DNA of 18,291 nt from an uncultured Acidobacteriota bacterium (lineage in GTDB: Bacteria > Acidobacteriota > UBA6911), in NCBI GenBank assembly GCA_963843575.1, contig CAWJKZ010000001.1, positions 1 to 18,291 of the forward strand, given 5' to 3'. Both the position numbers and the translations under genes were made by a program. Below are positions 51 to 3,368 of the stretch, in pieces (within the stretch, counting starts at the first letter, position 1; each line of letters opens with the position of its first letter). Under the pieces are notes generated by a model. The model searched no databases. It was given only the letters and a program-made list of their open reading frames with translations, and was not told where the DNA came from.

Positions 51-281
51 GGGGACGGACCAGAGCAAAGATCTTAAATTCAATAGTTTAACTGGATTTC
101 AAGCCTGAAAAGGGGCCTTATTTTGGATTTTTGGGGCCCATTTTGAGAAATAGGGAGTGCTGGGCCAGCCCCACCGTCTTATTTCAATAAAATCCGGGCA
201 AAAAATCGGAATAAGGCCCCTTTTGGTGGCATAATTTTCTATAATCATATGGAAAATAAAGAGTAGCCCAGGTCCGTCCCC
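51..281. repeat. 231-bp AT-rich palindromic element, copy 1 (MITE-like or recombination-site-like)
   Basis: Perfect 11-bp terminal inverted repeats GGGGACGGACC (51-61) / GGTCCGTCCCC (271-281). Internal 15-bp inverted repeat AAAAGGGGCCTTATT (108-122) / AATAAGGCCCCTTTT (210-224), each 57 bp in from its end. A homologous copy lies at 1929-2159. Confidence 0.92.
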
Positions 282-291
282 ATCGGAGGGG

Positions 292-1955
292 GTGCGCTTT
301 GAGGAGCTGCACGGAGTCATACTCGCTCTCGCCTCGGTGTTTTTGTGTTCCAGTCCCAGGCTTGCATCGCCCGACGCAGCCCCCGGCAAGACGACGTCCA
401 TCAAACTGGAACCGGGAGAGGTGTGGTGGGGCGGAGCGGTCAACGAGGGTCACAAAATGCCGTTCGGCCGCGAGCCATACACGATCGACCTCTATGGCTC
501 CAGCTATGGCAACCAGTGCGCCCCCCTGCTGGTGTCGACCAGGGGACGCTTCGTGTGGAGCGAAAAGCCCTACCGCTTTCAATTCCGCAACGGCAACCTG
601 ACCATCTCCTCCCCCCACGGGACCGTGGCGGTGGAGAAGGCGGGGAACACCCTCGCCGACGCCTACCGCTCGGCCGCGAAGAGGTATTTCCCGCCGAGCG
701 GGAAAATGCCGGATCCTCTCCTGATTGAACGCCCCCAGTTCAACACCTGGATCGAGCTGGTCTACAACCAGAATCAGGACGACATCCTGAAGTACGCACG
801 TGCGATCGTCGACAACGGGTTCCCCGCCGGAGTGCTGATGATCGACGCGAACTGGCAGCGGTATTACGGGAACTTCGAGTTCAAGGCGGAGCGGTTCCCG
901 GACCCGAAGGGAATGGTCGACCAGCTGCACGAACTCGGGTTCAAGGTGATGCTCTGGGTTTGCCCGTTCGTCAGTCCCGATTCCGAGGAGTATCGCAAAC
1001 TGGCCGAGCAGAGACTCTTCCTCCTTCAACGTGCTCCCCGGGGCGGGCAGCTTCCTGGAAGGACGCACCGAAGCCCGCCATCATCGAGTGGTGGGACGGG
1101 TACAGCGTCGTGCTGGACTTCTCCAATCCCGCCGCCGTGGCGTGGTTCAAGGGGCAACTGTCCGACCTGCAGAACAAGTACGGAATCGACGGATTCAAGT
1201 TCGATGCCGGCGACAGCGATTACTACCCCGATTCGGCGATTTCCTATCGGCCGGCTTCTGCCCAACGAGCACACGGAGCTGTTCGGCAAGGTCGGGCTCG
1301 ATTACCCGCTGAACGAATTCCGGGCGATGTGGAAAATGGGTGGGCAGGCCCTGGTGCGAGCGCCTCAGGGACAAGAACCACACGTGGGAGGACCTTCGGA
1401 AGCTGATTCCCCACACGTTCATGGAATCGCTGATGGGGTATGCCTTCAGCTGTCCCGACCTGATCGGGGGAGGCGATTACGTTTCGTTCCTCAACCTCTC
1501 CTCGTACGACAGGGAACTGGTGGTCCGCTCCGCCCAATGCCAGGCCCTCATGCCCATGATGCAGTTTTCCGCCGCCCCCTGGCGGGTGCTCGACAAGACG
1601 GGGCTCGACGCGGTTAAGCGGTGCGTCGCAACCAGGCAGCGATTCATCCCGCGCATCATGGAACTCGCCGAAAAAGCCGCCCGCACCGGCGAGCCGATCG
1701 TCGCCCCGCTCGAATACCACTTCCCGAACCGCGGCTACGCCGGGATTGCCGACGAGTTCATGCTGGGACCCGGATATCCTGGTCGCGCCGGTCCTGAACC
1801 AGGGCCAGACCCGTAGAACGGTCACCCTGCCGGAAGGAAAGTGGAGAGCCGACGACGGCAAGCTCTACGAGGGCGAAACCACCATCACAATCGAAGCCCC
1901 CCTGCCAAGGCTACCCTACTTCCAAAGGGGGGACGGACCAGAGCAACAATTTTAG
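292..1955 (+). CDS. Glycoside hydrolase family 31 protein with signal peptide, split by about 4 frameshifts
   Basis: GTG start after GGAGGG. Motifs PQFNTWIEL, LMIDANWQRYYG, RFPDPKGMVDQLHELGFKVMLWVCPF, LDFSNP, GIDGFKFDAGD (nucleophile), PDLIGG (acid/base), MQFSAAPW and DEFMLG/DILVAPV are spread over ORFs 292..1617, 960..1406, 1340..1816 and 1746..1955. Shifts are near 1045, 1255, 1355 and 1770. The stop TAG at 1953-1955 lies inside element copy 2. Confidence 0.9.
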
Positions 1956-2159
1956 GTTCAGTAACTTATCCTGAATTTCGACCTCAAAAGGGGCCTTATT
2001 TAAGATTTTCGAGCCCTTTTTTCCTGCATAAGGAGCGACGAGCCCAGAGCGACTCGTTAGTTCGAAAAAATGAGGGCCAAAAGGCGAAATAAGGCCCTTT
2101 TTGAGGGGCAAATTTCCTATAAGTCTCAATAAACAAAATATTAACCCGGGTCCGTCCCC
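1929..2159. repeat. 231-bp AT-rich palindromic element, copy 2 (same orientation as copy 1)
   Basis: TIRs GGGGACGGACC (1929-1939) / GGTCCGTCCCC (2149-2159). Internal IR AAAAGGGGCCTTATT (1986-2000) / AATAAGGCCCTTTTT (2088-2102). Aligns ungapped to 51-281 at about 68% identity (hand count 158/231). Confidence 0.92.
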
Positions 2160-3368
2160 ATGAAAACTGCGTGGTTGGTGCTGTGTTTGGCTTTCGTCGG
2201 CGGGCAGATTACGGAAAGGAACATACGCTTTGTCGAGTATCCGGATTTTCCCGAGGCGCACTCCACCTGGGGGTCGATCGGGTACAGCGCCCCCCATGAC
2301 AAGGTCTTCGTCGGGGTCACGAACCACCGCGACCGCGTCGGCCTCTTCGAATACGACGTGAAGTCTCAAAAGATGCGCCTCTGCGGCTTCGTCCCGGAGT
2401 TGGCCAACCTCCGCGCATACCAGTGGCAAGGCAAGATCCACTCCCAGATAGTCGAGGGCCCCGGCGGCTCGATGTACTTCGCAACGGACGGCGGCGAGAG
2501 CAGAGAAGAGTACCTCATGGAGCACCCGCACGGTTACAGCGGCGGGTTCATGATGAAGTGGGACCCGGCACAGAACCGCCTTACCAACCTCGGCGTCGGC
2601 TTGCAGTACGAGAGCATCAAGGACCTGGCCGTGGATCGCACGACCGGCCGCATCTGCGCGATCACCTACCCGCAGGTGCACTTCCTGGTCTATGATCCCG
2701 GCAAGAACGACTTGCGCGATCTCGGCCGCCTGGGCAGCGATCACGTGCCTCGAGTCCTGTTCCAGGACCGCTGGAGCAATGCCTACTACGTCGACTGGCG
2801 GCAGCGCCTGGTCAAGTTCGAGAGCAAGTCGGGCCGCCTCGTGTTCGCCCGCGAGAGCCTGCCGGCGTTCCCGGGAACGCCGGGCGAGTATATCGTCACC
2901 GGAGTTACCGCATATGCTTCCGATCCGGACGGCGGGGCGATCTACCTCATCACCTACGGCGCCAAGATGCTCGTGTTCAGGCCGCAGCAGGAGGGGATCG
3001 GAGCCGTCGAAGACCTGGGCGGCATTTTCGACAGCCCGCAGTCCCCGCCATGGAAGTACTACTGCCCCAACCTCGCGCTGGGCGCGAACGGCATGCTCTA
3101 CTACTTCCTCGGCGGCCACGGCATGTACGCCGTCCAGGGCGAGAGGGTTGCGCTCATGGAATTCGATCCCGGGCGTCGAACCAAGCGCGTAGTCCTGACC
3201 TTCCCAACCAGCGTCATCAACGAGGTGACGGGCTCGAACGTCAAGGACCGCCAGGGGAACCTCTACTTCGCGGGACGACGCTCGGACCCGCGAGCCGAGG
3301 AGCGAGGCGAGTCGGGATCCAGCCGCCCGTTCATGATCATTTTCAATCCGGGCAAGGAGGTCCGATGA
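2160..3368 (+). CDS. Secreted hypothetical protein, probable beta-propeller (402 aa)
   Basis: N-terminal hydrophobic signal MKTAWLVLCLAFVGG. Repeated blade-like units (LFEYDVKSQK, MKWDPAQNRLTNLG, FLVYDPGKNDLRDLG, LMEFDPG). GC3-rich codons. Confidence 0.8.
   Translation: MKTAWLVLCLAFVGGQITERNIRFVEYPDFPEAHSTWGSIGYSAPHDKVFVGVTNHRDRVGLFEYDVKSQKMRLCGFVPELANLRAYQWQGKIHSQIVEGPGGSMYFATDGGESREEYLMEHPHGYSGGFMMKWDPAQNRLTNLGVGLQYESIKDLAVDRTTGRICAITYPQVHFLVYDPGKNDLRDLGRLGSDHVPRVLFQDRWSNAYYVDWRQRLVKFESKSGRLVFARESLPAFPGTPGEYIVTGVTAYASDPDGGAIYLITYGAKMLVFRPQQEGIGAVEDLGGIFDSPQSPPWKYYCPNLALGANGMLYYFLGGHGMYAVQGERVALMEFDPGRRTKRVVLTFPTSVINEVTGSNVKDRQGNLYFAGRRSDPRAEERGESGSSRPFMIIFNPGKEVR

What the first reader, a model, noticed from the sequence alone, without database searches (positions are those of the whole stretch)
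51..2159. Fixed-length 231-bp self-symmetric element in two diverged, indel-free copies
Seen: copies at 51-281 and 1929-2159 are both exactly 231 bp and only about 68% identical (hand count), yet they align with no gaps. Conservation concentrates in the 11-bp TIRs (GGGGACGGACC) and a 15-bp internal IR pair placed exactly 57 bp from each end, while the centre is most variable. There is no target-site duplication and no cognate transposase or recombinase in the window. Inference: many substitutions with zero indels implies selection on spacing, as in a protein-bound recombination site or a MITE with strict geometry. I cannot match it to attC, dif, Tn3 IRs or CRISPR repeats, so it may mark an undescribed mobile or recombination system.
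Basis: partly seen in the sequence, partly recalled or inferred. Interest (0 to 1): 0.85.

Follow-up and report, generated by a model that had tools for sequence, protein, structure and literature searches.

The report
Ends-only copies of tyrosine transposon
The two 231-base elements are gene-less copies built from the two ends of a small mobile element whose tyrosine-transposase gene lies elsewhere in the same Acidobacteriota genome; this kind of element was first described in 2013, so the finding is real but fairly ordinary.

Summary
Window 51-281 and 1929-2159 are both 231 bp, align without gaps at 158/231 identity, and carry the 11-bp inverted ends GGGGACGGACC.

The genome has about 95 copies of a ~107-nt "arm": 26 inverted pairs of 223-335 bp and 43 solo arms. 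Total length is therefore not fixed. What is fixed is the spacing inside each arm.

One 921-bp copy on contig 27 has the same ends and encloses a 246-aa Y1/HUH tyrosine transposase related to RAYTs. Of the 80 best relatives of that protein, taken from many phyla, 51 are flanked on both sides by inverted GGGG[A/T]CGGACC-like ends. Their arm layout is the same, and 55 of 62 complete elements are 921-983 bp.

This matches the published TIRYT/TIRtron class (Di Nocera 2013; Quentin 2018 subclass 2.1; TIR consensus GGGGWSAS). That class is known to leave families of single and paired TIR repeats, including in Acidobacteria.

The window elements are thus non-autonomous, REPIN/MITE-like derivatives. 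Comparison with a congeneric genome shows some copies inherited in place and others gained or lost.

I found no solid evidence of secondary structure, promoters or terminators. The mechanism of mobilisation is inferred, not shown.

The parts
51..281 (.). Copy A: 231-bp paired element (two inverted arms plus a short centre)
51..157 (+). Copy A left arm. Terminal GGGGACGGACC at 51-61; CCTTATTT block from about 116.
   Evidence: nhmmer arm profile, E 1.2e-22, model positions 1-107
173..281 (-). Copy A right arm. Terminal 11-mer at 271-281, read on the minus strand.
   Evidence: nhmmer E 4.4e-19, model positions 1-109
158..172 (.). Copy A variable centre
   Evidence: Lies between the two arm hits. 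Centre identity between the copies is 6/17 over element positions 108-124.
1929..2159 (.). Copy B: 231-bp paired element
1929..2036 (+). Copy B left arm. Its first bases replace the last codons and stop codon of the upstream GH31-like gene.
   Evidence: nhmmer E 4.9e-22; junction compared with G001
2050..2159 (-). Copy B right arm. Its outer end abuts the ATG at 2160.
   Evidence: nhmmer E 2.4e-20; ORF 2160-3368
108..133 (+). Internal conserved block (AAAAGGGGCCTTATTT...) of copy A's left arm. It forms an inverted repeat with 199-224.
   Evidence: the repeat finder I3: 26 nt, 85% complementary
199..224 (-). The same block in copy A's right arm
292..1928 (+). GH31-like gene enclosed by the two copies. 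It is a pseudogene here and is context, not part of the element.
   Evidence: Pfam Glyco_hydro_31. There are four frameshifting insertions relative to the intact 544-aa G001 orthologue.

Best explanation
Each 231-bp element is a non-autonomous derivative of a roughly 0.93-0.98-kb transposon. That transposon carries a Y1 (HUH) tyrosine transposase of the TIRYT type, a relative of RAYTs. The derivative keeps the transposon's two ~107-nt ends (arms) in inverted orientation and has a short variable centre in place of the gene.

Each arm has a terminal GGGGACGGACC and a subterminal block (AAAA-GGCCTTATTT ... TTTT ... AAATAAG). The distances between these parts are fixed. The autonomous elements of many phyla show the same layout at both ends.

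Inferred: the transposase recognises the terminus together with the subterminal block, which would explain why spacing is conserved while the sequence between drifts. Inferred: it moved such ends-only copies, and perhaps single arms, in trans without making target duplications, as HUH enzymes do.

The genome's only gene of this type lies on contig 27 inside a copy with the same ends. It has an out-of-frame stretch just after the catalytic tyrosine motif, so present-day activity is doubtful.
For: Shown:
1. The family has 98 arm-profile hits. Of these, 95 start at the arm terminus, giving 26 inverted pairs and 43 solo arms.
2. Contig 27, 63852-64772 (921 bp), has a full left arm and a right terminal 11-mer. 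It encloses a 246-aa ORF with Pfam Y1_Tnp (40 bits, cut-off 23). Its best NCBIfam hit is REP_Tyr_transpos (42.6 bits; intact relatives 68-75; cut-off 80). The IS200 model scores only 19-22 bits.
3. Relatives of this protein at 36-48% identity occur in other genera and another family of the same class. They are flanked by inverted GGGG[A/T]CGGACC.
4. Of the 80 best of 560 relatives in public genomes (Acidobacteriota, Verrucomicrobiota, Kiritimatiellia, Planctomycetes, Desulfobacterota, Gammaproteobacteria, Aminicenantes and others), 51 have such a terminus (2 mismatches or fewer) inverted on both sides, 18 on one side and 11 on neither.
5. Of 62 elements with both ends, 55 measure 921-983 bp.
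6. Both ends of these elements carry the same arm layout at the same distances as the window arms.
7. There is no target duplication.
8. Compared with the congeneric genome G001, two copies are shared in place. At least six G000 arms or pairs, including both window copies, have no counterpart next to the orthologous flank. Two G001 copies are missing from G000.
9. The class is published: TIRYT/TIRtron with a GGGGWSAS motif and repeated single, dimeric or grouped TIRs, including in Acidobacteria (PMC3733652 passages; PMC6006769 section 15).
Against: - No biochemical or direct evidence of movement exists, and no clean empty site was recovered. At contig 13, 306375, G001 has about 96 nt of unrelated spacer where G000 has the element.
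- The G000 transposase has about 35 residues out of frame relative to eight relatives, so it may be dead. G001 and G006 have arms but no match to this protein (completeness 81% and 94%).
- HUH transposases normally read hairpins in single strands, but I found no solid support for a hairpin.
- The terminus fits the published GGGGWSAS at 7 of 8 positions only.
- The Y motif reads YIDLNM, whereas class 2 is defined by Y---NP.
- No C-terminal HTH domain was detected by Pfam at E up to 1.
Confidence: 0.8

Rival explanations
1. The mobile or functional unit is the single ~107-nt arm. 'Pairs' would then be two arms that settled independently at the two edges of an intergenic spacer, and the variable G+C-rich centre would be native spacer rather than part of an element.
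For: - 43 of 95 arms are solo.
- Centres vary from about 10 to more than 100 nt and are G+C-rich like the host.
- Outer termini abut coding ends on both sides.
- At contig 13, 306375, the G000 centre and the G001 spacer share the 10-mer ATCCCGGGCC in collinear position. My own rough estimate of that by chance is about 0.01.
- Di Nocera 2013 lists single, dimeric and grouped TIRs (PMC3733652 passages).
Against: - The three 231-bp copies are each other's nearest relatives over their whole length, centre included, in the same orientation and at the same length. This points to copying of the pair as one unit.
- The solo arm at contig 27, 124892, continues into a centre-like sequence resembling that of the trio, as a truncated pair would.
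- The autonomous element itself has two arms.
Confidence: 0.2
2. The arms are retained by the host for a function of their own, such as a protein-binding or insulating site, or a transcript-end or stability element at gene boundaries. Their transposon origin would then be only history.
For: - In the two copies shared in place by G000 and G001, the arms are 70-79% identical while the centre between them is 39-49%. The flanks are 75-90% (n = 2).
- The terminal 11-mer is exact in most arms although non-motif positions differ by about 40%.
- Arms fill the space between stop codons, start codons and promoter-like sequences exactly.
Against: - The conserved positions are the same ones conserved at the ends of autonomous elements in other phyla. 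Recognition by the transposase explains them without a host role.
- There is no orientation preference relative to genes. Of 92 arms, 48 face an incoming gene end, 30 an outgoing start, 12 are unclear and 2 are at contig ends (using my own crude gene calls).
- No promoter-like or terminator-like site lies in either window copy.
- There is no folding excess: mean z -0.52.
- Copies are gained and lost between congeners.
Confidence: 0.12
3. One reading: the sites belong to an undescribed site-specific recombination system (attC-, dif- or Tn3-like) with fixed length.
For: Strict internal spacing and a palindromic layout. Several arms lie at breaks of synteny with G001.
Against: - Length is not fixed.
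- The linked enzyme is a Y1/HUH transposase of a described class.
- No tyrosine or serine recombinase association was seen. I did not search for recombinases systematically.
Confidence: 0.03

Closest known systems
TIRtrons / TIRYT-associated TIR repeat families (Di Nocera, De Gregorio & Rocco 2013, BMC Genomics 14:522). Probably TnpA-Y1 subclass 2.1 of Quentin et al. 2018, given there as Bertels' RAYT group 1.
   Same: - A Y1/HUH transposase related to RAYTs and about 240-265 aa long.
- The gene is flanked by long terminal inverted repeats that begin GGGG[A/T][C/G].
- The TIRs also occur as a moderately abundant family of single and paired copies in the same genome.
- Acidobacteria are among the named hosts.
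- The clade has a patchy, multi-phylum distribution.
   Different: - The terminus is GGGGACGG/GGGGTCGG, which is 7 of 8 against GGGGWSAS. A few relatives read GGGGTCAG, which is 8 of 8.
- The Y motif is YIDLNM, not Y..LNP.
- No Pfam HTH was detected in the C-terminal part.
- In the passages I read I saw no mention of the ~107-nt arm with a subterminal block at fixed distance, shared across phyla. The figures and supplements of both papers were not visible to me.
REPIN-RAYT systems (Bertels & Rainey 2011; RAYT groups 2 and 3)
   Same: - One transposase gene per genome, flanked by its own repeats.
- Many gene-less inverted doublets and singlets in intergenic DNA.
- No target duplication.
- Some copies are inherited vertically between species.
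   Different: - REPs are 20-40-nt hairpins with a GTAG head. Here the units are ~107 nt, have no GTAG head and show no demonstrated hairpin.
- The protein is below the NCBIfam RAYT cut-off (42.6-74.7 against 80 bits).
- Copies are far more diverged from each other (median 58%) than, from my recollection, typical REPIN populations are.
IS200/IS605 family
   Same: HUH/Y1 catalytic core (Pfam Y1_Tnp). No target-site duplication.
   Different: - IS200/IS605 elements have no terminal inverted repeats and have different left and right subterminal hairpins.
- Their TnpA is about 150 aa with a Y---Q motif.
- The NCBIfam IS200 model scores only 19-22 bits (cut-off 55).
- A genuine but broken IS200-type gene on contig 21 has no such arms.
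Classical bacterial MITEs (for example Correia/NEMIS, RUP, ERIC)
   Same: Size of 70-300 bp, terminal inverted repeats, no coding capacity, positions next to genes.
   Different: Those are tied to DDE transposases and usually carry target duplications. Neither is seen here.

Membership tests
TIRtron / TIRYT TIR-repeat family | Transposase with HUH motif and catalytic tyrosine, related to RAYT rather than to IS200 TnpA | tested here: met
   - Pfam Y1_Tnp 40 bits (cut-off 23).
- NCBIfam REP_Tyr_transpos is the best model (42.6-74.7 bits); IS200 scores 19-22.
- NH[VT]H and YIDLNM are seen in the alignment A3.
TIRtron / TIRYT TIR-repeat family | Gene flanked by long terminal inverted repeats instead of REP hairpins | tested here: met
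   G000 contig 27 copy. 51 of 80 relatives have the terminus on both sides. 62 elements have both ends.
TIRtron / TIRYT TIR-repeat family | TIR motif fitting GGGGWSAS | tested here: inconclusive
   GGGGACGG and GGGGTCGG fit 7 of 8 positions, with G at position 7. GGGGTCAG in L132, L140 and L143 fits 8 of 8. The consensus is taken from PMC3733652 and PMC6006769.
TIRtron / TIRYT TIR-repeat family | The TIRs recur in the genome as single, dimeric or grouped repeats | tested here: met
   26 pairs and 43 solo arms, clustered on contigs 11, 12, 13, 19, 24 and 27.
TnpA-Y1 subclass 2.1 (Quentin 2018) | HuH NHVH/NH[YF]H; Y motif YIELNP/Y[IV]HLNP; median 238 aa; C-terminal HTH-like domain (Bac_DnaA_C, HTH_23, HTH_28) | tested here: inconclusive
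   NHVH and length (242-265 aa) are met. The Y motif is YIDLNM, with M for P. No HTH family was found at E up to 1 in three proteins. The authors' own HMMs were not available.
Acidobacterial TIRYT group of Di Nocera 2013 (T. saanensis, K. versatilis, A. capsulatum, G. mallensis) | Sequence clustering with those proteins | not tested
   Those sequences were not fetched. The alignment is in a supplement that I could not see.
REP/REPIN-RAYT | Short (20-40 nt) palindromic REP with a conserved GTAG head | tested here: not met
   - Units are ~107 nt.
- The bases just outside the terminus are TA in 19 of 81 arms and GTA in 5 of 81, but there is no fixed GTAG.
- Hairpin tests are not above controls.
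REP/REPIN-RAYT | Protein reaches the curated RAYT equivalog score | tested here: not met
   42.6, 68.1 and 74.7 bits against a cut-off of 80.
IS200/IS605 | No TIRs; short TnpA with Y---Q; curated IS200 model | tested here: not met
   TIRs are present. The IS200 model gives 19.4-21.7 bits against a cut-off of 55.
DDE-type MITE | Target-site duplication and a DDE parent element | tested here: not met
   Only 2 of 24 pairs have an abutting repeat of 2 nt or more, against 2.7 in the control. The parent carries a Y1 enzyme.
Rfam RNA families | Match at gathering score | tested here: not met
   Only Cyano-2 at 17.1 bits (gathering score 40), E 0.25.

The most novel reading that the evidence does not exclude
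A TIRYT-type (group-1-like) tyrosine transposase, a type treated as IS-like and not REPIN-forming, has founded in this acidobacterial genus a long-lived, vertically inherited population of about 100 gene-less arms. These arms are kept intact in place: 70-79% identity between species, next to a centre at 39-49%. They sit exactly at gene boundaries and at breaks of synteny. This would be a second, independent REPIN-like symbiosis, with much larger units and with a role in intergenic architecture or genome rearrangement.
Probability: 0.25. Interest if true: 0.55.

Novelty: new member of a known kind. Interest (0 to 1): 0.33.

Why it matters
The finding explains a conspicuous A+T-rich repeat in a G+C-rich, uncultured Acidobacteriota genome. 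It ties that repeat to its enzyme.

It also adds detail to a class that has had almost no follow-up: only three papers in the searched library contain the word TIRYT. Across many phyla these elements share one terminus (GGGG[A/T]CGGACC), one size (about 0.94 kb) and one ~105-nt end layout with fixed spacing. That gives a concrete substrate for the first biochemical test of how a TIR-flanked HUH transposase works.

For annotation it is a practical warning. The arms abut or overwrite gene ends, as copy B does to the last codons of a GH31 gene. They also coincide with breaks of synteny between congeners.

Tried and rejected
**Secondary structure**
- The CCTTATTT/AAATAAGG hairpin on 44 G000 arms (A2) had 64.6% of cells paired against 64.3% in shuffles (232 of 500 shuffles as high).
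- The A-tract/GC-stem/T-tract hairpin on A2 gave 59.9% against 60.1%.
- RNAalifold found no consensus on my hmmalign alignment of 81 arms in either direction (only two pairs, -1.5 kcal/mol, inward; none outward). It also found none on 69 ends from other genomes (A4).
- On A4 my CTTA...TAAG and TTTT/AAAA helices gave a covariation score of 0.146 against 0.119 +/- 0.010 (4 of 500 shuffles). The version slid by +1 scored 0.155, so I do not count this as support.
- A4 held 69 of 134 distinct ends. I had first kept 71 by the presence of the T-run, TAAG-like and CTTA-like motifs. I then dropped 2 that were more than 85% identical to another.
- DNA folding of arm positions 57-114 gave a mean z of -0.52, with 4% below -2 (n = 81). 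Positions 1-56 gave +0.12.
- All of these alignments are MAFFT or HMM alignments, not structure-aware. A real but register-shifting stem could be missed.

**Other negative or uninformative searches**
- Rfam: nothing near threshold.
- Promoter and terminator scan of 1-2400: 0 promoter-like sites. The 3 terminator-like sites are all outside the copies and no more than in shuffles.
- Sequencing runs: no RNA holder was listed. Six DNA rows held shares of 0.05-0.06 only. I did not lay reads.
- Literal terminus strings in papers: 24 papers held one of the four strings. The 15 listed were all unrelated (primers and the like).
- A search for later work on RAYT, Acidobacteria or TIRtron found nothing beyond the two papers used.

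- ISfinder could not be queried; there is no tool for it.
- Paper figures and supplements were not visible. Figure 9 and Additional file 5 of Di Nocera 2013 may show TIR lengths and the acidobacterial group.

**Corrections and limits of my own work**
- My first inference that many upstream genes 'stop at distance 0-2' from an arm was an artefact of frames left open at the boundary. One search replaced it. Its gene calls are my own crude GC3-based ones.
- Match counts are inflated by overlapping variable-gap matches. I use them only as present or absent per genome.
- Genome G034 is marked unpublished. It enters only the tallies and one tblastn row (L074).
Full report
**The observation**

Window 51-281 and 1929-2159 are both 231 bp. 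Both ends are exact (GGGGACGGACC and its complement, 11/11). The blocks at element positions 58-83 and 149-174 agree at 23/26 and 21/26. The centre (108-124) agrees at 6/17. The internal inverted repeat 108-133 / 199-224 begins 57 nt from each end. Both copies are 44-45% G+C in a genome of 64%.

**The family in the genome**

The window is the start of contig 1 of a 6.68-Mb assembly in 27 contigs, 88% complete.

- The exact 11-mer occurs 86 times on both strands against 15.4 expected.
- A profile built from 48 arms finds 98 hits at E up to 0.01.
- Of the 98 hits, 95 start at the terminus. They form 26 inverted pairs and 43 solo arms.
- Pair lengths are 223, 224, 228, 231 (four), 232, 240, 241 (two), 242, 243 (two), 244, 245, 250, 251 (two), 252, 253, 254, 279, 280, 297 and 335 bp.

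Total length is therefore not fixed. The variation lies in a G+C-rich centre.

What is fixed is the arm. It runs: GGGGACGGACC, then AA at 17-18, TTA at about 38-40, AAAA at about 58-61, CCTTATTT, TTTT, a second T or A run, and AAATAAG. CCTTATTT starts at arm position 66 in 60 of 81 full arms and at 64-67 in 76 of 81.

The two arms of one copy are no more alike than arms of different copies. The element is therefore two instances of one unit, not a maintained long hairpin.

**Why the two window copies have the same length**

Among 325 comparisons of 26 pairs, the median identity is 58%. The window copies and contig 27 128096-128326, also 231 bp, are each other's nearest relatives at 72-74%. They match in the same orientation and over the centre as well. 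A solo arm at contig 27 124892 belongs with them (82% over the arm). Equal length is thus mostly shared descent within a small subfamily, on top of a real constraint on arm length.

**The enzyme**

Contig 27 63852-64772 (921 bp) begins with a full arm and ends with the inverted 11-mer. It encloses a 246-aa ORF.

- The ORF matches Pfam Y1_Tnp at 40 bits.
- Its best NCBIfam model is 'REP-associated tyrosine transposase', below the curated cut-off (42.6 bits; 68.1 and 74.7 for two intact relatives; cut-off 80). The IS200 model gives 19-22 bits.
- It is the only gene of this type found in the genome. The second Y1_Tnp hit, on contig 21, is a broken classical IS200 TnpA without such ends.

Aligned with eight relatives, the G000 protein departs over about 35 residues right after YIDLNMV. 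Another frame there reads AGTVGHPRDWKWCGYPELMG..., which matches the relatives. The gene therefore has two compensating frameshifts. I cannot tell whether they are real or assembly errors.

**The link between enzyme and ends outside this genome**

Eight relatives (36-48% identity over at least 211 residues) were found in 41 genomes of the same family and class. They are flanked by inverted GGGG[A/T]CGGACC and weakly match the arm profile on both sides.

A wider search found 560 relatives. The best 80 come from Acidobacteriota, Verrucomicrobiota, Kiritimatiellia, Planctomycetes, Omnitrophota, Aminicenantes, Desulfobacterota, Gamma- and Zetaproteobacteria, Thermotogota and others. One of these records, identical to G014's copy, is titled as an Acidobacteriota MAG. 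This places the window's family in that phylum.

- Of the 80, 51 have the terminus (2 mismatches or fewer) inverted on both sides, 18 on one side and 11 on neither.
- Over 89 loci, 62 elements have both ends. They measure 921-1225 bp, and 55 of the 62 fall in 921-983 bp.
- Both ends carry the same layout: terminus, about 55 nt, CTTA/CTAT, T-run, A-run, TAAG. CTTA/CTAT sits at position 67-68 in 82 of 131 ends. That is the same distance as in the window arms.

The window elements are thus the two ends of such an element without its gene.

**What is already published**

Di Nocera et al. 2013 (PMC3733652; I read the passages around TIRYT, MITE and terminal inverted) named RAYT-like genes flanked by long TIRs 'TIRtrons' and their enzymes 'TIRYT'.

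- They noted the shared motif GGGGWSAS.
- They found moderately abundant TIR families present as single, dimeric or grouped copies.
- They singled out an acidobacterial group, in which the Koribacter versatilis ORF1552 TIRs form a repeat family.

Quentin et al. 2018 (PMC6006769; I read the abstract, section 15 part 1 and passages) place 20 of the 26 TIRYTs in subclass 2.1. That subclass has a 238-aa median length, HuH NHVH and Y motif YIELNP/Y[IV]HLNP. Its table equates it with Bertels' group 1. They add that further analysis is needed.

Bertels et al. 2017 (PMC5581495, passages) found only groups 2 and 3 tied to abundant flanking 16-mers. Group 1 had 12 occurrences on average.

My case fits the class in four features and deviates in three:
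- the terminus fits 7 of 8 positions of the motif
- the Y motif ends NM rather than NP
- no Pfam HTH was detected

**Mobility and age**

I compared ten G000 arms or pairs with G001, the same-genus genome (81% complete).

Shared in place:
- Contig 10 442550. Arms 79% and 70% identical, centre 39%, flanks 75% and 90%.
- Contig 13 321026. Arms 71% and 77%, centre 49%, flanks 81% and 77%. There is a 9-nt deletion in one G001 arm, so indels in arms do occur.

No counterpart next to the orthologous flank:
- Both window copies. The enclosed GH31 segment (285-1927) is 89% identical to G001 contig 10 and lies there in a different neighbourhood without arms.
- Contig 13 306375. G001 has about 96 nt of other sequence between the same stop codon and the same TTGACG-17-TAAAAT promoter-like sequence.
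- Contig 11 138182, contig 11 142211 and contig 24 447068. The genes beside the last two are neighbours in G001.

Unclear: two cases on contig 12.

G001 in turn has an arm and a pair that G000 lacks at the corresponding flank.

A looser pattern finds the family in 14 of 41 related genomes and never in the reversed control. The exact G000-type pattern is confined to G000 and G001.

The population is therefore old enough to be partly shared between species, and it has turned over since.

**Where the arms sit**

Of 92 arms, 48 face the 3' end of a gene that reads into them, 30 face a gene that reads away, 12 are unclear and 2 are at contig ends (crude gene calls).

Stop codons often lie at the junction. 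TA plus the first G of the element makes TAG. The dinucleotide just outside the terminus is TA in 19 of 81 arms against 1.35 expected. Starts lie 0-16 nt beyond the terminus in many cases.

Copy B replaces the last two sense codons and the stop codon of the GH31 gene (G001 ...PYFERL*; G000 ...PYFQRGDGPEQQF*). Its other end touches the ATG at 2160.

There is no target duplication.

**Mechanism**

Shown:
- the enzyme family
- its physical link to these ends across phyla
- the fixed geometry of the ends
- the absence of target duplications
- gain and loss between species

Inferred:
- the transposase binds the terminus and the subterminal block together, which would account for the conserved spacing
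- it moves gene-less copies in trans

I could not show a hairpin, which HUH enzymes normally need. No promoter, terminator or RNA family was detected.

Whether pairs or single arms are the unit that moves remains open. The 231-bp trio argues for pairs. The 43 solo arms and the contig 13 site argue that single arms, or decay of pairs, also matter.

**Verdict**

This is a real, non-random element family, correctly observed. It belongs to a described but little-studied class, so it is a new member of a known kind, not a new system. Its main residual interest is the arms' apparent conservation in place (n = 2) and the uniform architecture of the parent element across phyla.

Noticed in passing
window 292-1928: The GH31-like gene between the two copies is a pseudogene in this genome. 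Relative to the intact 544-aa orthologue in G001 (89% DNA identity), it has frameshifting insertions at 1039-1040, 1247, 1357 and 1769. Its last codons are overwritten by copy B. In G001 the gene lies in a different neighbourhood.
   Followed up: yes
G000 contig 27 64006-64746 (L033 1207-1947): The genome's only TIRYT-type transposase gene keeps an open 246-aa frame. About 35 residues after the YIDLNMV motif are out of frame, from two compensating frameshifts. Whether this is real decay or an assembly error is unknown.
   Followed up: partly
G000 contig 21 301573-301866, minus strand (L031): A classical IS200-type TnpA (MREWQSLSHVRWYCRYHVVFVPKYRK...) interrupted by a TAG stop and not flanked by the arms.
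   Followed up: partly
G000 contig 13 about 317715-317795 (L166 13215-13295) and contig 19 about 420990-421080 (L165 9490-9580): Two abundant G+C-rich palindrome-containing repeats of about 60-75 nt, with 111 and 132 BLAST hits in G000. They share a GGAGTGCGGCG.../...CGCCGCACTCC core, so they may be one REP-like family in two orientations. In G001 they occur in arrays spaced about 117-157 nt. None lies in the window.
   Followed up: partly
G000 contig 13 312521-312933 (L166 8022-8434): A tandem repeat of about 117 bp (about 3.5 units) fills an intergenic region where G001 has a solo arm instead.
   Followed up: no
G000 contig 11 142211 and contig 24 447068, compared with G001 contig 20 16020-20755: Genes that are neighbours in G001 lie on different G000 contigs, each next to an arm. 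The window copies also sit at breaks of synteny. The arms may mark rearrangement points.
   Followed up: partly
G000 contig 15 310890 and contig 20 67123; contig 16 7099-7339 and contig 24 507072-507311: These arm copies share their flanks. The first two are identical over at least 420 nt. The second two are 85.5% identical with near-identical flanks. They are segmental duplicates or duplicated contigs, not separate insertions.
   Followed up: no
outer flank of arms, genome-wide: The two bases just outside the terminus are TA in 19 of 81 arms (1.35 expected), and G is avoided at position -1 (4 of 81). This is found per arm, not as a duplication on both sides of a pair.
   Followed up: partly
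G001 and G006 (relatives): Both carry many arm-pattern matches, but no match to the TIRYT protein was found with this query (completeness 81% and 94%). They may hold orphan arm populations.
   Followed up: no
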